From positions 1 through 33,477 of the IMG/VR virus record IMGVR_UViG_3300029193_000102: a stretch of DNA of 33,477 nt. One strand, 5' to 3'. The position numbers and the translations under genes are program-made. Positions 2,321-19,014 of this stretch are shown here, piece by piece. Below the pieces are notes generated by a model that was not told the origin of the DNA, searched no databases, and saw nothing but the letters and a program-made list of their open reading frames with translations. The DNA is from a virus (taxonomy: Duplodnaviria; Heunggongvirae; Uroviricota; Caudoviricetes). Each line of letters starts with the position of its first letter. Position 1 is the stretch's first letter.

Positions 2321-4762
2321 TTAAAAATCAGCCTGACTCGGGATCAGTTTTTGCCAGATAGCTGAAACGTATTTTGCCTGGTAACGAGCGTCATCAAGTG
2401 CATTATGGCGCTCACCTTCGAATGGAATAGCCGTTCTGGCATCGAAGTCTATGGCTTTCCCCAGCTCAACGATTGTGCGTACATCGCGATCGTTGTAGTA
2501 ACGCCACGGGCAGGGGATCCCCTGCCGTTCGTATGAACGGCGCAAAATCGTGTTGTCGAAGTTGGCTCCATTTCCCCAGACCTGAACAAAAAATTCACCG
2601 GAGTTTTCGTCGATAAATTCCCGCAATTGTAACAGTGCATCATCTAACGGGATTTCATCGGTCATAATGGCAGATTGCGCTTCGCGTGATTGCTTAAGCC
2701 ACCATTTAATGGTGTCCCGATCAATGACTCCGCCAGCAGTTTCCAGATCGATAGTCTTACTAAATTCCGGTCCCATATCTCCGGTTTGCGGATCGAAAAA
2801 TATTGCACCTATTGAGATGATCGGGGCATCAGGATTTTTTCCCATGGTTTCAAGGTCGATCATTAGATGGTCACACGTCCTGCTGGTGGATGTGATTTCG
2901 TGATGACCGTTCACCTTAATTGAGTGATCTGCCGTCTCGCCAGTTTTATTATCGCTGGCGTGATGCTGATTGCCGCCAGGGTTCTCCTTGTGTGGATGTT
3001 CAGCGCCTTCCATTTCCTCCGGATCATTTTCCTGAACTTCAACCTGATTCTCTTCATCGAATGTTTCCTGGTATGTTGCGTCGCCCATCACCGCGCCACA
3101 ATCAGGGCAGTTGCCGCCACCGCTCTGACCGCAGGCGGTGCAGACTTTTTCCGGTTCCTGTTGCGCTACTGGTTCGGATTGTTTCGTTTCTGGCTCGTTT
3201 TGTAACGCATTTGGGCTGTTTTGTTCCGCTTTTTGGTCGTTCCGTTCCGATTCATGCTGGTTCTGGTTCACAGAATCGCGAGTCTGGATCCCCTTGACCC
3301 ATTTCGGATCATTAGGGTCGCTAATCCCCTCAACAAATTCACCACGCGATACAGCAAGTAACTTATCGGCGTCAGGCTGGCTGATATTGGCTGCCTGCAT
3401 AATTTTGTTTACTTCGTCAGCGGTGACTTTTACTTGGTTAGCGGAACTCACCTGCGACTGAGCATCCAGCGACTGCGCGTTTTGGCCATGTTCAGTTGTA
3501 TCCGGTTCCATTGTTTCAGTTGTTGCCTGTTCACCTGCCATTGCGTCAGATGGTTGTGGTTTTTCTTCTTCTGTTTCACGCTCAGTAACCACCTCGCGGT
3601 TAATTTCTTCCAGGATATCTTTTTCCGGCGTATGCCGGGCAGCTGTGAGAGTTTCCTTGCTGGGGTTCTCGTGATCAGTTTCCGTCAAATAGGCGTTGAT
3701 ATACCCCTGAAGGCGTCCCGGGTAGTGATAAAATTCAGGGTGTGCGCTTCGGATAAGTGCAAAAATAGCGGCGCGGGAATAGTCCAGAATACCCGGGGTT
3801 GCACGAAGTGCTGCGGACCATTCTTTGAACGGACTTTCTTTGTTCAGGACTACTTCTTTTGCGCGACGATAAACGCTGCCCGGAATTTCATAAATATTAA
3901 AATCCATCGGAAGTGTGGATGCTGCAATCTCCACATCCAGTGTGTCGAGGGTGTGTACTAAATTCGGATTGCGATCGGTTTTGTTCCCACCGCCAGCATT
4001 AGCACCGAAAGCCGTGCGGGTGATGCGTGAAACACGATTTCCTTTCATCCACTCTTTTGTCAGCAGACCCCGATCAGTGTAGTCAGCGTCCAGGTATGCT
4101 TCGAAAAAAGCAGTTATTAGTCCCAGGTCTGAATTACCAGGATTAGGGAAAACTTTGTCAGTGTCACGAACCAGTTTGTGGAGGTCGCGAATCTCCAGCG
4201 AGTCGAGCAGACTGGTTTTATGCGAAATAGCCAGGGCAGTAACAGCCGGTAGTTCTTCAGCCCGTGCAATGTGTAATGCCTGGAGTTCGTCGCGTGAAAC
4301 GTGCGTTACTGGTTTTTCGCTGCCGTGTTGAGCAAGCCAACGAATGGGCAGTTCCTGACCGGAGACAGGCAGAAGCATGCTCTCCTCAATCTCAGTCATG
4401 TCTTCGCCGTTGATGTTGGTATTGTCAGTGCTGGCTGGTTTGTCCCGAACAGAGGGGGAAGGGCCGATAAATGTCATTGTGATGCCATCTTTCCCGCCTT
4501 TTTCATAGCGGTTGCAGAATTCAGTATCAAACACGCCTTCTGGCGGAAGGTCGTCAACAACGGGCAAATTGACGCGGACGGGTTTTTTAAAGTCGTCTTC
4601 ATCATAATCGTTGTCATCCATTGCGGTAATGCAGCGGGAGATTGCAACAGATAATTTTTTTGCTGTAGTCCAGTAAAAACCACCTTTAATTCCTAGGCGT
4701 TTTCTTACTTTGTCATTTTTTGCTTCGCAATATAGTGCAAATTCTTCTTTATCAGTGCTCAT
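2321..4762 (-). CDS. Large exonuclease-like protein: C-terminal DEDDh-type 3'-5' exonuclease domain, central Cys4 zinc ribbon, acidic linker, uncharacterised N-terminal half (possibly the intact form of Qin YdfE)
   Basis: 813 aa; C-terminal motifs [10 protein letters not shown] (Exo I-like) and [13 protein letters not shown] (Exo III H-x4-D-like); [16 protein letters not shown] zinc ribbon; Qin-like gene order int - ydfE - ydfD - dicB. Confidence 0.7.
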
Positions 4763-4855
4763 TATTGGTAAACCTCATCACAGATTTAAGGGTGAACAAA
4801 TCTCTGCCATTGCTGACATATAAGAATGAAACTGGATATTTATTACGGTGCTGTT

Positions 4856-5047
4856 TTAAAGACCTGCCGGGATTTCGTTATTATCCTGGTGAATAACTTT
4901 ATCGACCGGATAACAGTTGCCTGGAATTTTCTGTTCGGTTGCTGCTGCCATACATTCCTGCATTGTTCTGTGAACACTGACTGCAATATCAACTGGCTCT
5001 CCGGAAACAAGAAAAACCGTCAGAATAAGTGCAAATACTGGATTCAT
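4856..5047 (-). CDS. ydfD: YdfD-like small protein with N-terminal hydrophobic segment (Qin lysis-associated peptide)
   Basis: 63 aa from ATG 5045..5047 with AGGA upstream; MNPVFALILTVFLVSGEP... signal/TM-like N-terminus; directly downstream of dicB as in Qin. Confidence 0.55.
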   Translation of the reverse strand: MNPVFALILTVFLVSGEPVDIAVSVHRTMQECMAAATEQKIPGNCYPVDKVIHQDNNEIPAGL

Positions 5048-5232
5048 TGTGCACATCCTTTTGGCATCAGACGTAAACGGGCCAGCATTGAGACAATGCA
5101 TACTTTATTTAATAACTCCCGTTCGTGTTTTCTTTTGTTAATGGCATCTTCAGTAAATACAGGATTACTGATAGTGACGCCAATTTCAAAACAACCTTCA
5201 GACGTATTAACGTTTGGTAATAACGTTTTCAT
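5044..5232 (-). CDS. dicB: DicB cell-division inhibitor
   Basis: 62 aa from ATG 5230..5232 with GAGGA 8 nt upstream; MKTLLPNVNTSEGCFEIGVTISNPVFTEDAINKRK... matches recalled E. coli K-12 DicB in length and sequence. Confidence 0.7.
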   Translation of the reverse strand: MKTLLPNVNTSEGCFEIGVTISNPVFTEDAINKRKHERELLNKVCIVSMLARLRLMPKGCAQ

Positions 5233-5401
5233 TATCGCGTCCTCAACAATGAATTTTGTGATGCAGTGCCTGGTGCCTCCAGGTGACGTTAACCAGTTAA
5301 CAATTAACGCCGGATACAGAGAATCCACCCATAACACTGTTTTTGGTTTTAACTGTTCCGCGTGCGCTCAGCCGCATTCACCACATCACAAAATTCACTT
5401 T

Positions 5402-5459
5402 AAAAAGGGCGGCAGAGCAGTCACGGAGTAAAACTGATACCGCCAAACGTCACCAGAAA
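5402..5459 (-). ncRNA. dicF: DicF small RNA (53 nt at 5407..5459) with 3' stem-loop and U-tract
   Basis: Minus-strand sequence TTTCTGGTGACGTTTGGCGGTATCAGTTTTACTCCGTGACTGCTCTGCCGCCC followed by TTTTT matches recalled DicF; lies upstream of dicB as in the Qin dicB operon. Confidence 0.7.
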
Positions 5460-5799
5460 ATTGATAACAGAGGGCGTTGCAGCGGGGTTGTCACTTAAGC
5501 GTATGGTCAACCTGACAACCCGGTGTCCTCAACGGGGAAGGAATAACCCCGCCATACTTACCGCCGCGCCATTTCGCGGGTTGCCACAACCGGAAGCGCA
5601 CGGTCGACGAAAATTTAACGACAGGCTATCTATGAACCAGCTACCTCGCCGTGTGCTTTCGCGTTATGCTCTGACTTTTCAGAGAAATATCCTTTCAGTA
5701 AACTGTCAGTGCCGGATGTTCACCCGTGTCCGGCGCACGCACTCCACTTCACCCGTGGAGAACTCCTTAATTACCAACCTTAGCTTCGTTGGTTAGCTA

Positions 5800-6018
5800 T
5801 TAACGCGGGTATGTAATCATTCTGGCAATGCTTAATGCCGCTGCTTTTTCCAGATTGGTGATATCCTGCTCCAGAGCGGACAGATTTTCAGCCTGCTTAG
5901 CCCTGGCTTCATTGGCCCATTTCAGATCCTGCGCTGCATTAATTTTCTGGCGCATCCACTCATAAAGTTCATCATCGGTATAGTCTGGCGCGATGATGAC
6001 GGGTTCTCGTTTCTGCAT
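5800..6018 (-). CDS. Hypothetical 72-aa protein (position and size equivalent to Qin YdfC)
   Basis: ATG 6016..6018 with AAGGAG 6 nt upstream; predicted coiled-coil-rich small protein; same strand as the dicB module. Confidence 0.5.
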   Translation of the reverse strand: MQKREPVIIAPDYTDDELYEWMRQKINAAQDLKWANEARAKQAENLSALEQDITNLEKAAALSIARMITYPR

Positions 6019-6089
6019 GTCGGCTCCTTGTGGTTAGCGTTGCCTGCTTTTAACCACGTCAGGCGAGGTGGTATCCTCTGAGGGGTCTG

Positions 6090-6446
6090 TTACTCGAGAG
6101 GAAATTGGTTATGAGTACAATCAAGTTTTCTTGCCCAGAATGTGGTGGCGAAGTCTTTGACACATCCTTTAAGCCGCAGGGCTCTGACAGTTTCGCGGGA
6201 GCCATCTGCAAAAATTGTGGTCACCTTGTAACTGAAGATGAGTCCTCGCAGTTCGATGATGAAATCGTTGACAATATCTTCGGTGCACTCACCAGAGACT
6301 TTCTGAAGTAAAGGCGCATACCGCTTAGTTACCGCTCTGATAATTCTTACCTGTCCGGCAATGGCGCTGATGTCAATATAAAGCGCCATTGCTGCTTCTT
6401 TGCCGATCCCGGGATGCCTTCCATTCTGATGTTTGACTTCGCCCAC
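6090..6446 (-). CDS. Hypothetical 118-aa protein (GTG start); conflicts with the antisense zinc-ribbon ORF at 6111..6311
   Basis: AGAGGA 7 nt upstream of GTG 6444..6446; same strand as the surrounding early-left operon; no recognisable motif. Confidence 0.3.
   Translation of the reverse strand: MGEVKHQNGRHPGIGKEAAMALYIDISAIAGQVRIIRAVTKRYAPLLQKVSGECTEDIVNDFIIELRGLIFSYKVTTIFADGSRETVRALRLKGCVKDFATTFWARKLDCTHNQFPLE
6111..6311 (+). CDS. Hypothetical 66-aa zinc-ribbon protein (CPECGG...CKNCGH); antisense to the 6090..6446 ORF
   Basis: ATG 6111 with GAGAGGAAA upstream; two CxxC pairs ~22 residues apart; opposite strand to neighbouring genes. Confidence 0.35.
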   Translation: MSTIKFSCPECGGEVFDTSFKPQGSDSFAGAICKNCGHLVTEDESSQFDDEIVDNIFGALTRDFLK

Positions 6447-6636
6447 TGAGAAATCCTCTGTTTCCCCTTAACGCCGGGGTAGCGGAACAAAAACCTGCTG
6501 CATAGTTATTAAAGTTGAACCCTGCCGTCATGTTCTTACGCCTCGGGCTGGCTACTTAACCCCTGACCACTGCCTGGTAACTCGAAGTATTGCCCTGCAT
6601 TCTGTGGGGCGGGGTGGGTTGGTATGAAAAGAAGGA

Positions 6637-6673
6637 TACCCATAGGTATTTAAAAAGTAAATACCTATGGGTA
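6637..6673. promoter_or_regulatory. 16-bp perfect inverted repeat TACCCATAGGTATTTA / TAAATACCTATGGGTA (5-bp spacer); candidate operator upstream of the dicB-type operon
   Basis: Arms at 6637..6652 and 6658..6673; lies in the 270-bp non-coding gap between the repressor gene stop and the first early-left ORF. Confidence 0.35.
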
Positions 6674-6715
6674 AATTTTTGCGGTGTCTTAACTGGTGAC
6701 TAGTTGTTTGGTGAG

Positions 6716-7135
6716 CTATGATGCGTTTTGTGCTTTCTTTTTACGGATTTCTTCGTAGATCATATTGTAATACTGTTTTTTCTCTTCAAGAGTTTTTAAT
6801 AATTTATCCGCTTCACTTTCTGGCAGTTCGTCTAAGAGATCTAAAAAAATACGTTGTCGTGGCGTTAGAACCCTTGTTTCATAACTGGAGGCTGTGTTCG
6901 TTGATGATGAAACGATACCATCCATCCATCCCCGGGGTAACCCAAAGGACTCTTCGATAATCTCCACCATATCATCAGCGATCCGTTTTTTTCCCTTTTT
7001 CCCCTCTGGGTACAACATTCTTGATACATAAGAAGGCTCGCGCCCGATCTTTCTGGCCACGTTAACCGCTTTACCATCGCATTTCTCATCACGAATTTTG
7101 ATGAGTTGCTGTCGTCTAAATTCATATTTGTCCAT
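6716..7135 (-). CDS. Prophage repressor, HTH (DicA/RacR-like immunity repressor), possibly translated leaderless
   Basis: 139 aa; HTH-like segment GKAVNVARKIGREPSYVSRML; C-terminal FLDLLDELPESEAD resembles recalled DicA; divergent from a Cro-like gene; no SD before the ATG but a TATTAT -10 (7142..7147) sits just upstream. Confidence 0.7.
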   Translation of the reverse strand: MDKYEFRRQQLIKIRDEKCDGKAVNVARKIGREPSYVSRMLYPEGKKGKKRIADDMVEIIEESFGLPRGWMDGIVSSSTNTASSYETRVLTPRQRIFLDLLDELPESEADKLLKTLEEKKQYYNMIYEEIRKKKAQNAS

Positions 7136-7141
7136 AGGTAA

Positions 7142-7211
7142 ATAATAGATGCGATTACCGCAAGGTAAACAACCTGTGGGTATTGACTTTTGTTTACCTG
7201 TGGGTATTCTT
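7142..7211. promoter_or_regulatory. Divergent promoter/operator region: direct repeats ACCTGTGGGTATT (7172..7184, 7196..7208) overlapping a rightward promoter (-35 TTGACT 7183..7188, -10 ~7205..7211) and a leftward promoter (-35 GTTTAC 7165..7170 rc, -10 TATTAT 7142..7147 rc)
   Basis: Repeats and hexamers read directly; spacings 16-17 bp; placement between the divergent repressor and Cro-like genes. Confidence 0.4.
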
Positions 7212-7235
7212 TGCTGTGTTTACTAAGGAGTAGCT

Positions 7236-7517
7236 ATGGAAGAATTAAGAATATTTCTCAATTCTCTTTCGTCAGATGAACAGCGTATGTTTGCATGCGA
7301 GTGTGGTACCAGCATCGGTTATCTAAGAAAGGCATTGAGTAAAGGTCAAGTGTTAGGGGCATCGTTATGTGTCCTTATTGAGCGAGCCAGTAATGGTGAA
7401 GTTACACGTCAGCAACTAAGGCCTTTTGATTGGATGAATATTTGGCCCGAGCTGGAAGATACCAAAACGTTAACACAACCACTTTCTAGGAGCTTGATTC
7501 ATGAAAATCAAGCATGA
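7236..7517 (+). CDS. Cro-like HTH regulator (YdaS/DicC-like)
   Basis: 93 aa; AAGGAG SD 7 nt upstream; HTH segment CGTSIGYLRKALS; QLRPFDWMNIW resembles recalled Rac YdaS; divergent from the repressor. Confidence 0.7.
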   Translation: MEELRIFLNSLSSDEQRMFACECGTSIGYLRKALSKGQVLGASLCVLIERASNGEVTRQQLRPFDWMNIWPELEDTKTLTQPLSRSLIHENQA

Positions 7518-7926
7518 ACACATCCGCATGGCGATGAATGCATGGGCGCGTCCTGATGGCGAAAAAGTTCCAGCAGCTGGAATAACCCAGGCTTATTTTG
7601 AGTTGGGTATGACGTTCCCAGAACTGTATGACGACAGCCATCCGGAAGCCCTGGCTCGCAATACCCAGAAAATTTTCCGCTGGGTAGAGAAAGACACCCC
7701 TGATGCTGTTGAAAAAATGCAGGCTCTGTTACCGGCGATCGAAAAGGCGATGCCGCCTTTGCTGGTGGCCCGTATGCGCAGCCACAGTTCTGAATATTAC
7801 CGTGAGATCGTCGAACGGAGGGATCGGCTGGTGAAGGATGTCGATGATTTTGTTGCGTCAGCGGTTGTTTTGTATGACCAGATGAATCGCGGCGGCCCGG
7901 CAGGGAATGCTGTGGTGATGCACTAA
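7501..7926 (+). CDS. YdaT-like regulator (CII-position protein)
   Basis: 141 aa; N-terminus MKIKHEHI matches recalled Rac YdaT; AGGAG SD; start overlaps the Cro-like gene end. Confidence 0.65.
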   Translation: MKIKHEHIRMAMNAWARPDGEKVPAAGITQAYFELGMTFPELYDDSHPEALARNTQKIFRWVEKDTPDAVEKMQALLPAIEKAMPPLLVARMRSHSSEYYREIVERRDRLVKDVDDFVASAVVLYDQMNRGGPAGNAVVMH

Positions 7927-17043: not shown

Positions 17044-19014
17044 ATGGCATTTAAACACTACGATGTGGTCAGGGCGGCATCGCCGTCAGACCTTGCGGAT
17101 GCGCTTGCTCAAAAAATTCGTGAAGGATGGCAACCATACGGCGGGCCGTTTTCTTCGTACACGGATGATGGCGCAGCACTTATTCAGGCGATTGTCGCAG
17201 AAGGTAATGTCACCACACCTGTGGTGGTGAAGCCGTCGGATGGAGAAGGCGCAGTTATCAGCACCACCAGCAACCCGGAGTATTACTTTGTTGTTGCCCT
17301 GGCCGGGCAGTCAAACGGTATGGCGTATGGTGAAGGGCTTCCGCTGCCGGAGACATATGACCGTCCGGACCCGCGTATTAAACAGCTGGCGCGTCGCAGC
17401 ACTGTCACGCCGGGTGGTGCGTCCTGTAACTACAATGACATTATTCCTGCGGACCACTGCCTGCATGATGTTCAGGATTTGAGTAAGTTTTCACACCCGA
17501 AAGCCAGCGCAGCTCAGTATGGATGCGTGGGGCAGGGATTACATATCGCGAAGAAATTGTTGCCGTTTATTCCGGCGAATGCCGGTATTCTTCTGGTTCC
17601 GTGCTGCCGTGGGGGTTCTGCATTTTTGGCGGGCGATGAAGGTACCTTCAGCGAATCCACCGGCGCAAGCGAGACCTCGGCACGCTGGGGTGTAGATAAG
17701 CCACTGTACAAGGACCTGCTTACCCGTACTCAGGCCGCACTGAAGGCCAACCCTAAAAATATTCTGCTTGCAGTGGTCTGGATGCAGGGCGAGTTTGATT
17801 TGAAACAGGGTGCATACGCCACTCAGCCGGGGCTGTTTGATTCCATGGTGGAAAAATATCGTTCTGACCTGTCGGAATTCGGAGGTCAGTGTCTCGGGGG
17901 CTCTCCGTCATCAGTTCCCTGGATTTGTGGCGACACGACCTACTACTGGAAGCAGACTTATTCTTCGCAATACGATGCGGTGTATGGTGCATACAAGACG
18001 AAATCCGCAAAAAAAATCTTCTTTGTGCCGTTTATGACGGATGAAAACGGGCGAAATGTGGGTACCAACGAGCCGTCAGAAGATCCGGATGTTGCGGATA
18101 TTGGGTATTACGGAGCCGGTGGTCGAACGGACGCCAAAACCTGGACGACGGCTGACCGTAAAACGCATTTTGGATCATGGGCACGTCGTGGGATTATTTC
18201 CGACCGTCTGGCAACGGCGATTCTTGTGCATGCCGGGAGAACCGCTGAATTCATTACCGGAAAACAGCCTGATACGGTGAAGCCCACCGGACCTTCCGGT
18301 GAAGGTACGGAGAGAGAGCCGGAAGGTCCGGTCAGTAACCGAACCCTGATGAGTCTGCTGGCGTCCGGCGAAGACCTGGCATCACAGGGCTGGCGCTATT
18401 ATCACAAACCGGCGAGCGGAGACAATGTTAACAAAAACATTGCTGAAGCGGTGGTCAGTGATGCGGGGGCTACGGGAGGTAAGGCCCTGCAACTGAATAA
18501 ACCGGAAAACCACATCTGGTTTCTGGAGCATGATGCAGCCGGGCAGGGGGCAGAGTTGCTGAAGAAAGGAGGACGTGTGAGCGTACGGTTTAAGTTGCCG
18601 GGTTCACTGGTGCCGAATCAGTTTGCCCTGGGCATTTACTGGCAGTTGTCGTCCCTGCCGGAGGGAGTGACGCTGGCAGAGGAAGGCAACGACATGCTGA
18701 TGTCCTTCTTCCTGCAGACGGATGCGACGAACCTGAACGCGATGCACCACAAGAAGCCGAATGCGAAGCTGGAAACGTTCGGGGTCTTTGATAACGGATG
18801 GCACACACTGGCTTTTGAGTTTGCCGGAAACAACAGCATTCAGGTGACGCCGGTACTGGATGAGAAACGGGGGACGCCGTTCACACTGGTGAAATCTCCG
18901 GCATCAGGGGCGGTGGACAAACTGCAACTGACAGGCATATCAAAGGCGGCGACATATACGCTGCTGATTGACAGTGTGAAGGTGGAAGTGAACAACGCGG
19001 ACATCGCGGCATGA
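17044..19014 (+). CDS. nanS: Prophage sialate O-acetylesterase (NanS-p type; DUF1737 N-terminus plus SGNH/SASA esterase domain)
   Basis: 656 aa; GGAGG SD; N-terminus MAFKHYDVVRAASPSDLADALAQKIREGWQPYGG; esterase motif ALAGQSNG; position between Q and lysis genes as in Stx phages. Confidence 0.8.
   Translation: MAFKHYDVVRAASPSDLADALAQKIREGWQPYGGPFSSYTDDGAALIQAIVAEGNVTTPVVVKPSDGEGAVISTTSNPEYYFVVALAGQSNGMAYGEGLPLPETYDRPDPRIKQLARRSTVTPGGASCNYNDIIPADHCLHDVQDLSKFSHPKASAAQYGCVGQGLHIAKKLLPFIPANAGILLVPCCRGGSAFLAGDEGTFSESTGASETSARWGVDKPLYKDLLTRTQAALKANPKNILLAVVWMQGEFDLKQGAYATQPGLFDSMVEKYRSDLSEFGGQCLGGSPSSVPWICGDTTYYWKQTYSSQYDAVYGAYKTKSAKKIFFVPFMTDENGRNVGTNEPSEDPDVADIGYYGAGGRTDAKTWTTADRKTHFGSWARRGIISDRLATAILVHAGRTAEFITGKQPDTVKPTGPSGEGTEREPEGPVSNRTLMSLLASGEDLASQGWRYYHKPASGDNVNKNIAEAVVSDAGATGGKALQLNKPENHIWFLEHDAAGQGAELLKKGGRVSVRFKLPGSLVPNQFALGIYWQLSSLPEGVTLAEEGNDMLMSFFLQTDATNLNAMHHKKPNAKLETFGVFDNGWHTLAFEFAGNNSIQVTPVLDEKRGTPFTLVKSPASGAVDKLQLTGISKAATYTLLIDSVKVEVNNADIAA

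What the first reader, a model, noticed from the sequence alone, without database searches (positions are those of the whole stretch)
6637..6673. Perfect 16-bp palindrome in the gap between the repressor gene and the early-left operon
TACCCATAGGTATTTA-aaaag-TAAATACCTATGGGTA is a perfect inverted repeat and is AT-rich, so it does not look like a terminator. It sits where an operator/promoter controlling leftward early transcription (the dicB-type operon) would be expected. Its half-site loosely resembles the ACCTGTGGGTATT repeats on the other side of the repressor gene.
Basis: partly seen in the sequence, partly recalled or inferred. Interest (0 to 1): 0.45.

Follow-up and report, generated by a model that had tools for sequence, protein, structure and literature searches.

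The report
Prophage early-left operator and promoter

Summary
TACCCATAGGTATTTA-aaaag-TAAATACCTATGGGTA (6637-6673) is a perfect 16+5+16 inverted repeat and the longest in the window.

- Each arm holds a 12-bp box, TACC-N4-GGTA. The only other perfect copies in 33.5 kb lie in the repressor/cro gap.
- In 48 loci that encode the same DNA-binding domain (Enterobacterales to Neisseria and Xanthomonas), the box sits at -73 and -33 of the repressor ATG. In 35 of them it recurs downstream of the repressor gene as a pair spaced 24-27 bp (mostly 25-26).
- That pair always frames a one-directional sigma-70 promoter: TTGACA-like hexamer right after box 1, then 17-18 nt, then TAnnnT starting in box 2.
- In phage mEp043 the pair sits directly upstream of nutL and gene N.
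- Phage Tritos and Qin have other DNA-binding domains. There the same position carries other motifs that match their own cI/cro gaps.

So the arms are OL2 and OL1, over PL (-35 6661..6656, -10 6638..6633, minus strand). PL drives ydfC-dicF-dicB.

The perfect palindrome itself is confined to one E. coli lineage, which lacks a separate repressor-gene terminator. A secondary terminator role is possible but unproven.

Verdict: new member of a known kind, of modest interest.

The parts
6637..6673 (.). Perfect 16+5+16 palindrome, equal to the whole OL region (two operator boxes plus the PL -35 hexamer and spacer).
6662..6673 (-). OL2-type operator box. On the minus strand it reads TACCCATAGGTA. It lies immediately upstream of the PL -35 hexamer.
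   Evidence: Perfect TACC-N4-GGTA. It occupies the position of box 1 of the conserved downstream pair.
6637..6648 (-). OL1-type operator box. On the minus strand it reads TACCTATGGGTA. It covers the PL spacer and the first two bases of the -10 hexamer.
6656..6661 (-). Predicted PL -35 hexamer, TTTACT (4 of 6 matches).
   Evidence: The hexamer directly after box 1 has the consensus TTGACA in 35 loci, with a mean of 4.5 of 6 matches. The mirror orientation gives 1.7 of 6. It is colinear with TTGACC of Qin dicBp.
6633..6638 (-). Predicted PL -10 hexamer, TATCCT, after a 17-nt spacer. The inferred transcription start is about 6626-6625.
   Evidence: The -10 has the form TAnnnT, with T at position 6 in 35 of 35 loci. 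It is colinear with TAATCT of Qin dicBp. Similarity to heteroimmune phages ends at 6619-6628.
6674..6680 (-). A-tract (AAAAATT on the minus strand) upstream of OL2; possibly an UP-like element.
   Evidence: An A-rich run precedes box 1 in most loci. The function is inferred only.
6716..7135 (-). 139-aa repressor gene. It has a helix-turn-helix (HTH) DNA-binding domain (residues 1-73) and a DicA-like helical C-terminal domain. It has no S24 peptidase domain.
   Evidence: phrog_5736 at E 6e-70. No Pfam hit. The DNA-binding domain is shared with S24-type repressors. The C-terminal domain is 33% identical to that of DicA. AlphaFold2 model, pLDDT 84.8.
7156..7167 (.). OR3-type box TACCGCAAGGTA, overlapping the -35 hexamer of the PRM-like promoter.
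   Evidence: A box is conserved at -32/-33 of the repressor ATG.
7171..7182 (.). OR2-type box AACCTGTGGGTA (one mismatch), lying between PRM -35 and PR -35.
   Evidence: The same position is occupied in mEp043 and in other loci.
7195..7206 (.). OR1-type box TACCTGTGGGTA, covering the PR spacer and the start of its -10 hexamer.
   Evidence: A box is conserved at -71 to -73 of the repressor ATG.
7183..7210 (+). PR-like promoter, TTGACT-16-TATTCT, for the cro-like (YdaS family) gene and the YdaT/CII-like gene.
7142..7169 (-). PRM-like promoter, TTTACC-16-TATTAT. The inferred start is at the A of the repressor ATG, which would give a leaderless mRNA.
   Evidence: The same layout appears in relatives. 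Inferred only.
7236..7517 (+). Cro-like gene, 73% identical to Cro of phage mEp043.
5044..6625 (-). First part of the operon predicted to be driven by PL. It comprises a conserved leader, a ydfA-like remnant (6373-6531), ydfC (5800-6018), the DicF sRNA (5407-5458) and dicB (5044-5232). The DUF1482 gene (4856-5101) and the exonuclease gene (2321-4762) follow further left on the same strand, outside these coordinates.
   Evidence: Pfam. Rfam DicF at 76.7 bits. RefSeq annotation. The gene order matches the Qin dicBF operon (PMC10448788).

Best explanation
The palindrome is the left operator (OL) of this lambdoid, Qin/Rac-like E. coli prophage, superimposed on the early-left promoter PL. Each arm contains one 12-bp dyad-symmetric box, TACC-N4-GGTA, which is the recognition site of the HTH domain of the adjacent 139-aa repressor. 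Presumably one repressor dimer binds each box. Read on the minus strand the layout is: A-tract, box OL2 (6673..6662), -35 TTTACT (6661..6656), a 17-nt spacer that contains most of box OL1 (6648..6637), -10 TATCCT (6638..6633), and a start near 6626/6625. Repressor bound at the two boxes, which lie 25 bp centre to centre, would occlude RNA polymerase. That would keep the leftward operon silent in the lysogen: leader, ydfA remnant, ydfC, dicF, dicB, DUF1482 and exonuclease. The same protein would act at three boxes in the repressor/cro gap (7156, 7171, 7195) to repress PR and autoregulate PRM, as lambda CI does. The Cro-like protein probably uses the same boxes. What is shown: the motif sharing, its position-specific conservation, the directional promoter consensus, and the co-variation of the site with the DNA-binding domain. 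What is inferred: physical binding, stoichiometry, cooperativity, promoter activity and the exact start site. The perfection of the 16-bp palindrome is not a family feature. It arises because each box is already self-symmetric in 8 of 12 positions, the two N4 cores here are reverse complements, and the flanks are TTTA/TAAA.
For: (1) Within the window, perfect TACC-N4-GGTA occurs only in the two arms and in the repressor/cro gap. ACCTRTGGGTA occurs 4 times against 0.45 expected.
(2) In 48 loci (288 kb) encoding the same DNA-binding domain there are 142 perfect boxes against about 4.4 expected by chance. Of these, 73 lie at -71..-75 or -32..-35 of the repressor ATG, 63 lie in downstream pairs and 6 lie elsewhere.
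(3) A downstream pair spaced 24-27 bp is present in 35 of 48 loci. It sits 43 to 2169 nt after the repressor stop, on the repressor's strand.
(4) The promoter is directional. The hexamer after box 1 has the column counts T35 T30 G25 A29 C23 A16, which is the TTGACA consensus. The spacer is 17-18 nt. The -10 is TAnnnT, with T at position 6 in 35 of 35 loci. The mirror orientation scores 1.7 of 6 for the -35.
(5) Phage mEp043 has a cI whose DNA-binding domain is 76% identical and a Cro that is 73% identical. There the pair follows a GC-rich terminator and lies directly upstream of a lambda-like nutL (boxB GCCCTGAAGAAGGGC) and gene N.
(6) Co-variation. Phage Tritos has the same PL leader (identical up to window 6619) and the same repressor C-terminal domain, but a different DNA-binding domain. 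The palindrome position there holds ATGTACTAAAAGTAC-type repeats, which recur in Tritos's own cI/cro gap as a 13-nt perfect match. In K-12 Qin the colinear position is the DicA-repressed dicBp (TTGACC-17-TAATCT), flanked by TGTTAG-type repeats that resemble the DicA operator Oc (PMC10448788; PMC3441716).
(7) The predicted repressor structure is a five-helix XRE/lambda-type HTH domain followed by a helical C-terminal domain.
Against: There is no experimental binding, footprint or transcription-start evidence for this repressor family in the searchable literature. The window's PL hexamers are only 4+4 of 12 and fell below the scanner's threshold. Because of the palindrome, the plus strand offers an equally good match here (TTTAAA-17-TAAATT), so in this one sequence the direction rests on the family comparison. 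A plus-strand Zn-ribbon gene (6111-6311) lies between PL and ydfC, so read-through to dicF and dicB is assumed, not shown. Thirteen of the 48 loci showed no downstream pair within the stored flank.
Confidence: 0.85

Rival explanations
1. Dual function. Besides being OL/PL, the extended hairpin serves as the intrinsic terminator, or as a 3'-end stabiliser, of the repressor (PRM) transcript. It would stop read-through into the toxic dicF/dicB operon. This lineage has lost the separate terminator that relatives carry.
For: The element is terminator-like on the minus strand: a 16-bp stem with the tail TCCTTCTTTT. The RNA hairpin has a free energy of -23.9 kcal/mol, z = -7.1. At least 11 relatives have a canonical GC-rich terminator between the repressor stop and OL, for example AAACCCGC..GCGGGTTTTTTT. 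The window, L046 and L045 have none. None of 27 distinct contexts with a stem of 14 bp or more has a dedicated upstream terminator, against 46 of 109 other contexts. Nine sequence variants keep 97.9% of cells paired. Two pairs show compensatory changes, UA<->CG and AU<->GC, the latter with G-U intermediates on the minus strand. The covariation score is 0.130 against 0.092 for shuffles, reached by 12 of 500 shuffles.
Against: All extended palindromes belong to one E. coli lineage, so the association rests on a single evolutionary event. Only 5 of the 16 stem pairs are G-C. The T-rich tail is missing in the palindromic relatives L046 (TCCTACATTCC) and L045 (ACTAGCCACACC). Similar T-rich discriminators follow the -10 in Klebsiella loci that have no palindrome. 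Two variants carry C-A mismatches. The covariation is weak by the tool's own calibration. It could also come from template-switch 'correction' of quasi-palindromes, a known mutational process in E. coli (my own knowledge).
Confidence: 0.25
2. It is only a bidirectional Rho-independent terminator that separates the convergent repressor gene (minus strand) from the Zn-ribbon gene (plus strand). It has no operator or promoter role.
For: The terminator scan is positive on both strands. The hairpin is stable on both strands.
Against: This does not explain why both arms carry the box that is otherwise confined to the repressor/cro gap. It does not explain the family-wide conservation of the boxes without hairpin conservation, the embedded directional promoter consensus, or the co-variation with the DNA-binding domain. 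The Zn-ribbon gene has its own GC-rich hairpin with a T tail at 6358-6392.
Confidence: 0.04
3. In this lineage the palindrome creates a second, mirror-image promoter on the plus strand: TTTAAA 6649-6654, 17 nt, TAAATT 6672-6677. It would be controlled by the repressor and would fire an antisense RNA into the 3' end of the repressor gene once repression is lifted.
For: It matches the consensus as well as PL does, at 4+4 of 12, in the window and in L046.
Against: The mirror orientation is not conserved across the family, with a mean -35 match of 1.7 of 6. Many close relatives have ...AAAAAGT before the box, which weakens the mirror -10 to TAACTT. There is no transcript evidence.
Confidence: 0.07
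4. It is the binding site of a different protein, such as the YdaT/CII-like protein or a host factor, and not of the repressor.
For: The palindrome by itself does not say which protein binds it.
Against: YdaT of CP-933P recognises TTGATT-N6-AATCAA (PMC9986795, abstract), and that motif is absent here. The boxes track the repressor's DNA-binding domain across loci that differ in their CII/YdaT-type gene: YdaT_toxin in L045-L048 and Phage_CII in L049-L052. They are replaced when that DNA-binding domain is replaced. The Cro homologue does track with the DNA-binding domain, so Cro sharing these sites is expected and is compatible with the best explanation.
Confidence: 0.04

Closest known systems
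Bacteriophage lambda OL/PL, with OR/PR/PRM and the CI and Cro proteins (textbook knowledge).
   Same: The repressor gene is flanked by two operator clusters that share one dyad-symmetric motif. Adjacent sites are about 24-25 bp apart. The sites overlap the -35 and -10 hexamers of divergent early promoters. There are three sites at OR. A PRM-like promoter would give a leaderless repressor mRNA. The immunity module ends at the PL start.
   Different: The box is 12 bp (TACC-N4-GGTA) rather than 17 bp. There are two OL sites, not three. OL lies only 43 nt after the repressor stop, with no rex genes and no separate terminator. The repressor lacks the S24 self-cleavage domain. The early-left operon has no N gene or nutL in this prophage.
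Qin prophage DicA / dicBp / dicBF operon of E. coli K-12 (PMC10448788; PMC3441716).
   Same: The repressor is short (135-139 aa) and lacks an S24 domain. Its C-terminal domain is homologous, at 33% identity. The repressor gene is followed directly by a repressed PL-type promoter. That promoter aligns colinearly with the predicted PL here. It drives ydfA, ydfC, dicF and dicB.
   Different: The DNA-binding domain is unrelated: DicA is Pfam HTH_3, whereas the window protein has no Pfam hit. The operator motif differs: TTGTTAGTCATAACTAACAA for DicA against TACC-N4-GGTA here. In Qin the operator pair is not a perfect palindrome.
Immunity region of lambdoid phage mEp043 (PV340537, NC_019706).
   Same: The cI DNA-binding domain is homologous (76% identity) and so is Cro (73%). 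OR has the same three-box layout, and there is a two-box OL over a TAGACA-17-TATATT promoter. The immunity specificity is probably the same or overlapping.
   Different: The mEp043 cI is a 228-aa S24-type repressor. Its OL lies 409 nt downstream, after an extra ORF and a canonical terminator, and it precedes nutL and N. The two boxes there are not embedded in an extended palindrome. No operator study of mEp043 was found.
Rep/Ant of Salmonella phage SPC32H (PDB 5D50).
   Same: It is the best structural match to the predicted repressor, at Foldseek E 8e-4. It is a short HTH repressor that is inactivated by an antirepressor rather than by RecA-dependent cleavage.
   Different: Sequence identity is only 17-24% and the TM-score about 0.45. 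Its operator was not compared here. The resemblance is a lead, not evidence of membership.

Membership tests
Lambdoid left operator/promoter (OL/PL) | It lies downstream of the repressor gene, on the same strand, upstream of the early-left operon. | tested here: met
   It sits 43 nt after the repressor stop. ydfC, dicF, dicB and the exonuclease gene follow on the minus strand.
Lambdoid left operator/promoter (OL/PL) | It carries two or more copies of the dyad-symmetric motif that also occurs between the repressor and cro genes. | tested here: met
   TACC-N4-GGTA is found at 6637 and 6662, and at 7156, 7171 and 7195, and as a perfect copy nowhere else.
Lambdoid left operator/promoter (OL/PL) | The sites overlap the -35 and -10 hexamers of a sigma-70 promoter that points away from the repressor gene. 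| tested here: met
   In the window the promoter is TTTACT-17-TATCCT, 8 of 12 matches. In the family (35 loci) the consensus is TTGACA / TAnnnT on the repressor's strand only. This is sequence evidence; promoter activity was not measured.
Lambdoid left operator/promoter (OL/PL) | The operator sequence co-varies with the repressor's DNA-binding domain among heteroimmune relatives. | tested here: met
   Shown for Tritos and Qin. The boxes are conserved across 48 loci with the same domain.
Lambdoid left operator/promoter (OL/PL) | The repressor binds it physically and represses leftward transcription. | not testable with these tools
   This needs EMSA or footprinting and reporter fusions. No published data were found.
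Rho-independent terminator | A stable stem-loop is followed immediately by a U-rich tract. | tested here: inconclusive
   It passes a simple scan on both strands, and the hairpin is -23.9 kcal/mol. However, only 5 of 16 stem pairs are G-C, and the tail is interrupted (UCCUUCUUUU).
Rho-independent terminator | The structure, rather than the sequence, is conserved in relatives. | tested here: inconclusive
   Within the E. coli lineage, 2 of 16 pairs show compensatory changes, with 12 of 500 shuffles as high. Outside that lineage the arms are not complementary beyond the boxes. The U-tail is absent in L046 and L045.
DicA-type immunity system (Qin) | The repressor belongs to the DicA family (HTH_3 N-terminal domain plus DicA C-terminal domain). 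| tested here: not met
   Only the C-terminal domain matches: NCBIfam DicA at 24.5 bits against a cut-off of 101, and 33% identity over 46 aa. The N-terminal domain has no HTH_3 hit, whereas DicA has one.
DicA-type immunity system (Qin) | The promoter is colinear with dicBp and drives a ydf-dicF-dicB operon. | tested here: met
   Alignment with K-12. DicF at 76.7 bits. DicB Pfam hit at E 2e-39.
Any curated RNA family (Rfam 15) | A covariance-model match at the palindrome. | tested here: not met
   A search of 4500-7600 at E <= 1 found only DicF and a sub-threshold STnc100 match.

The most novel reading that the evidence does not exclude
In this E. coli lineage the two OL boxes have been shaped into a near-perfect 16-bp palindrome. 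One 37-bp element would then do three jobs: repressor operator, core of the early-left promoter, and hairpin terminator (or 3' stabiliser) of the repressor's own mRNA. The hairpin would replace the dedicated terminator that relatives keep between the repressor gene and OL. Possibly the element also carries a mirror, repressor-controlled antisense promoter.
Probability: 0.2. Interest if true: 0.45.

Novelty: new member of a known kind. Interest (0 to 1): 0.3.

Why it matters
This element is the likely switch that keeps DicF and DicB silent. Both are cell-division inhibitors; DicB also blocks phage entry and DicF has been linked to EHEC virulence. The prophage immunity type that carries it is present in 822 of 5426 complete E. 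coli genomes (15%), including EPEC E2348/69. The comparison also yields a testable operator code, TACC-N4-GGTA, with 3 sites at OR and 2 at OL. That code belongs to a repressor DNA-binding domain that no Pfam model covers and that is spread from Enterobacterales to Neisseria, Burkholderiales and Xanthomonas. It predicts cross-immunity between this prophage and mEp043-type phages. In kind, however, it is textbook lambda-style regulation.

Tried and rejected
Rfam search of 4500-7600 found nothing at the palindrome.

PDB sequence search with the repressor found nothing significant.

Pfam has no family for the repressor. Its identity had to come from PHROGs, from homologues and from a structure model.

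Literature searches for the box sequences, for mEp043 operators and for YdaS/YdaT operators found no description of this operator.

A pure-terminator reading was rejected because the boxes are conserved without the hairpin. A chance palindrome was rejected.

A YdaT/CII-type site was rejected because the known YdaT motif, TTGATT-N6-AATCAA, is absent.

I looked for a third OL box by eye in 6560-6716. The one-mismatch scan found none either.

The association between an extended palindrome and the absence of a dedicated terminator turned out to rest on one lineage. It therefore cannot be used as statistics.

Orientation by promoter score is ambiguous for the palindromic lineage itself, which ties at 8 against 8. 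Some rows are consequently the same element read on the other strand.

Full report
OBSERVATION.
The sequence at 6637-6673 reads TACCCATAGGTATTTA-aaaag-TAAATACCTATGGGTA. The repeat finder reports arms 6637-6652 and 6658-6673 as 16 nt, 100% complementary and 5 nt apart (pair I2). It is the longest perfect hairpin-type inverted repeat in the window. In 30 composition-preserving shuffles the longest arm was 8-13 nt.

CONTEXT.
Over 6300-7300 the window is 100% identical to a prophage of avian-pathogenic E. coli BEN5202. That prophage is integrated next to a tRNA-Ser gene. Reading leftward on the minus strand, the genes are:
- a 139-aa repressor (6716-7135; phrog_5736 'transcriptional regulator', E 6e-70; no Pfam hit);
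- a gap with no annotated gene (6312-6715);
- ydfC (5800-6018);
- the DicF sRNA (5407-5458; Rfam 76.7 bits);
- dicB (5044-5232);
- a DUF1482 gene;
- an exonuclease gene (2321-4762).
A small Zn-ribbon gene (6111-6311) lies on the plus strand. To the right of the repressor are a Cro-like YdaS-family gene (7236-7517) and a YdaT/CII-like gene (7501-7926). This is the layout of the Qin prophage. There DicA, a short repressor without an S24 domain, represses dicBp, the PL analogue that drives ydfABC-dicF-dicB (PMC10448788).

THE ARMS ARE TWO COPIES OF THE MOTIF FOUND IN THE REPRESSOR/CRO GAP.
ACCTRTGGGTA occurs four times in the window: twice in the palindrome and twice at 7172 and 7196. The chance expectation is 0.45, and none of 100 shuffles reached four. 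The core is a 12-bp box, TACC-N4-GGTA, that is itself dyad-symmetric. Perfect copies occur only at 6637, 6662, 7156 and 7195, with a one-mismatch copy at 7171. The functional unit is therefore not a 16-bp half-site. It is two complete boxes 25 bp apart, plus three boxes at the other end of the repressor gene.

HOMOLOGOUS REPRESSORS HAVE THE SAME BOXES IN THE SAME PLACES.
The first 73 residues of the repressor are 50-80% identical to the N-terminal domain of LexA/S24-type phage repressors of about 225 aa. These come from Salmonella, Klebsiella, Edwardsiella, Pantoea, Yersinia, Aeromonas, Neisseria, Burkholderiales and Xanthomonas, and the presumed recognition segment EPSYVSRMLY is conserved. 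I fetched 42 such loci from one genome per species, and added mEp043 and several short-form relatives. In the 48 loci (288 kb) there are 142 perfect boxes against about 4.4 expected by chance.
- 73 boxes lie at -71..-75 or -32..-35 of the repressor ATG.
- 63 lie in pairs downstream of the repressor gene.
- 6 lie elsewhere.
The window's boxes at 7195-7206 and 7156-7167 sit at -71 and -32, the family positions. A downstream pair spaced 24-27 bp is found in 35 of 48 loci, from 43 to 2169 nt after the stop codon. The N4 cores and the inter-box spacer vary freely between genera while the eight specified bases hold. That is a phylogenetic footprint, not merely inherited sequence.

THE PAIR FRAMES A ONE-DIRECTIONAL PROMOTER.
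On the repressor's strand, the hexamer directly after box 1 has the column counts T35 T30 G25 A29 C23 A16, which is TTGACA (mean 4.5 of 6). A spacer of 17-18 nt follows. The -10 hexamer begins with the last TA of box 2 and has T at its sixth position in 35 of 35 loci. That position is not part of the box definition. The mirror orientation gives a -35 match of only 1.7 of 6. In the window this places:
- PL -35 at 6661..6656 (TTTACT);
- PL -10 at 6638..6633 (TATCCT);
- the start near 6626/6625.
PR on the other side has the same architecture: box, TTGACT, box, TATTCT. An A-tract precedes box 1 in most loci and may act as an UP-like element (inference).

ANCHOR IN A BONA FIDE PHAGE.
Lambdoid phage mEp043 has a cI whose DNA-binding domain is 76% identical and a Cro that is 73% identical. 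It has three boxes in its cI/cro gap, spaced 25 and 15 bp; in the window the spacings are 24 and 15 bp. Its downstream pair follows a canonical terminator. The pair lies immediately upstream of a lambda-like nutL (boxA-like TGCTCTTAA, boxB GCCCTGAAGAAGGGC) and gene N. In mEp043 the pair is therefore OL/PL by position.

CO-VARIATION WITH THE DNA-BINDING DOMAIN.
Phage Tritos provides a natural domain swap. Its repressor has a different N-terminal domain but nearly the same C-terminal domain. Its early-left leader is identical to the window's up to 6619. Between 6620 and 6715 there is no similarity. In place of the palindrome Tritos has ATGTACTAAAAGTAC-type repeats. A 13-nt perfect copy of that motif recurs in Tritos's own cI/cro gap (pair I2).

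K-12 Qin is a third immunity type. Its DicA-repressed dicBp (TTGACC-17-TAATCT) aligns colinearly with the predicted PL. It is flanked by TGTTAG-type repeats that resemble the genetically defined DicA operator Oc, TTGTTAGTCATAACTAACAA (PMC3441716).

Similarity of other heteroimmune phages to the window also stops at 6625-6628. The sequence at the palindrome's position thus changes together with the DNA-binding domain and the OR motif, while the flanks stay homologous. This is the strongest non-experimental evidence for an operator.

MECHANISM.
Shown by sequence:
- two boxes overlap a PL-type promoter;
- three boxes overlap PR and a PRM-type promoter.
Inferred:
- a repressor dimer binds each box, the pair occludes RNA polymerase at PL, and it silences the dicF/dicB operon;
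- binding at OR represses the cro-like gene and autoregulates PRM, whose -10 (7147..7142) places the start at the A of the repressor ATG;
- Cro uses the same boxes.
The AlphaFold2 model (pLDDT 84.8) has a five-helix HTH domain, a disordered linker at residues 76-87 and two long C-terminal helices. The best structural match is the antirepressor-controlled Rep of Salmonella phage SPC32H (Foldseek E 8e-4). The C-terminal domain is 33% identical to that of DicA. With no S24 domain present, induction is more likely to go through an antirepressor than through RecA-dependent cleavage. This follows the Rem/DicA precedent in PMC10448788 and is an inference.

IS THE PERFECT PALINDROME ITSELF MEANINGFUL?
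It is not a family feature. Outside one E. coli lineage the arms are complementary only within the boxes.

Within that lineage, a scan of IMG/VR for the same backbone gave the following N4 pairs:
- CATG/TATG: 93 (15 of 16 paired; a G-U pair in minus-strand RNA);
- CATG/CATG: 10 (perfect);
- CATA/TATG, the window's type: 9 (perfect);
- CACG/TATG: 2;
- CATG/CATA: 1;
- CGTG/TATG: 1.
E. coli loci with a 92%-identical repressor have CACA/TGTG, which is perfect. L221 has CACG/CGTG. On nine distinct variants, two of the 16 pairs show compensatory changes and 97.9% of cells pair. The covariation score is 0.130 against 0.092 for shuffles, reached by 12 of 500 shuffles. This is suggestive, but weak by the tool's own calibration.

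The element passes a terminator scan on both strands, and its RNA hairpin is stable at -23.9 kcal/mol. At least 11 relatives carry a canonical GC-rich terminator between the repressor stop and OL, and this lineage has none.

Against a terminator role:
- only 5 of the 16 stem pairs are G-C;
- the T-rich tail is absent in the palindromic relatives L046 and L045;
- a similar T-rich discriminator follows PL in Klebsiella loci that have no palindrome;
- all extended palindromes trace to one lineage;
- quasi-palindromes are known to be 'corrected' by template switching in E. coli (my own knowledge).
I rate a secondary terminator or 3'-stabiliser role at about 0.25, and a pure-terminator reading at about 0.04.

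Because of the symmetry, the plus strand also offers TTTAAA-17-TAAATT. A mirror antisense promoter cannot be excluded, but nothing in the family supports it.

COMPARISON WITH WHAT IS KNOWN, AND NOVELTY.
In kind this is lambda-style OL/PL, and most specifically the DicA/dicBp arrangement of Qin. It is not a member of the DicA system by its DNA-binding domain or its operator. At sequence level it belongs with the immunity region of mEp043, for which I found no operator study.

It is therefore a new member of a known kind. The additions here are:
- the exact box;
- the 2+3 site architecture;
- the promoter assignment and its direction;
- the breadth of the repressor/operator family;
- the chimeric nature of the repressor;
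- the open question of why this lineage keeps the arms complementary.
The OL segment occurs in 822 of 5426 complete E. coli genomes, including EPEC E2348/69.

Noticed in passing
window 6716-7135 (minus strand): The repressor is a domain chimera. Residues 1-73 form an mEp043-cI-type HTH domain, shared at 50-80% identity with S24/LexA-type repressors of about 225 aa across Gamma- and Betaproteobacteria; no Pfam model covers it. Residues 89-134 are DicA-like: 33% identical to K-12 DicA and nearly identical to the repressor C-terminus of phage Tritos. There is no S24 domain, so control by an antirepressor is likely.
   Followed up: partly
window 7135-7169 (minus strand): The PRM-like promoter TTTACC-16-TATTAT ends 7 nt before the A of the repressor ATG. 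That implies a leaderless repressor mRNA, as for lambda cI. The same layout appears in relatives.
   Followed up: partly
window 6358-6392: A perfect GC-rich 11-bp inverted repeat (GCAATGGCGCT ... AGCGCCATTGC, 13-nt loop) lies just after the plus-strand Zn-ribbon gene (6111-6311). It has a T-rich tail only on the plus strand and is probably that gene's terminator. It sits inside the path of PL transcripts.
   Followed up: no
window 6300-6625: The early-left leader (CCAACCCACCCCGCCCCACAGAA...) and the ydfA-like start are shared at 95-98% identity with heteroimmune phages (Evi, vB_EcoS-640R1, PPompW, Tritos). Partial matches to the 6300-7300 query occur in about 3700 of 5426 E. coli genomes. Similarity to those phages stops at 6619-6628, the predicted PL start. 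The ORF at 6373-6531 begins MTAG, like DUF1391 YdfA of relatives, but then diverges and has no Pfam hit.
   Followed up: partly
L044 (phage mEp043) 4560-4590; also L012, L014, L018 and L020: An extra inverted repeat, TTACCTG-N10-CAGGTAA (which reads as TACC-N14-GGTA), lies about 30 nt upstream of the OL pair in several relatives. It is absent from the window. Its function is unknown.
   Followed up: no
window 18286-18332: A 14-bp perfect GC-rich inverted repeat (ACCGGACCTTCCGG ... CCGGAAGGTCCGGT, 19-nt loop). It appears to lie inside an annotated hypothetical gene of the BEN5202 record.
   Followed up: no
window 6865-7125 (minus strand, alternative frame); proteins P0010 and P0019: Some E. coli genomes encode frameshifted versions of this repressor. 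Their N-terminal part is read in the frame of the 86-aa ORF and their C-terminal part in the normal frame. This suggests repressor pseudogenes in some prophage copies.
   Followed up: no
window 5337-5800: RefSeq coordinates of dicB and the DUF1482 gene in BEN5202 are shifted by 18 bp relative to the window's ORFs. The window therefore differs from that record by an 18-bp indel somewhere between dicB and ydfC, although 6300-7300 is identical.
   Followed up: no
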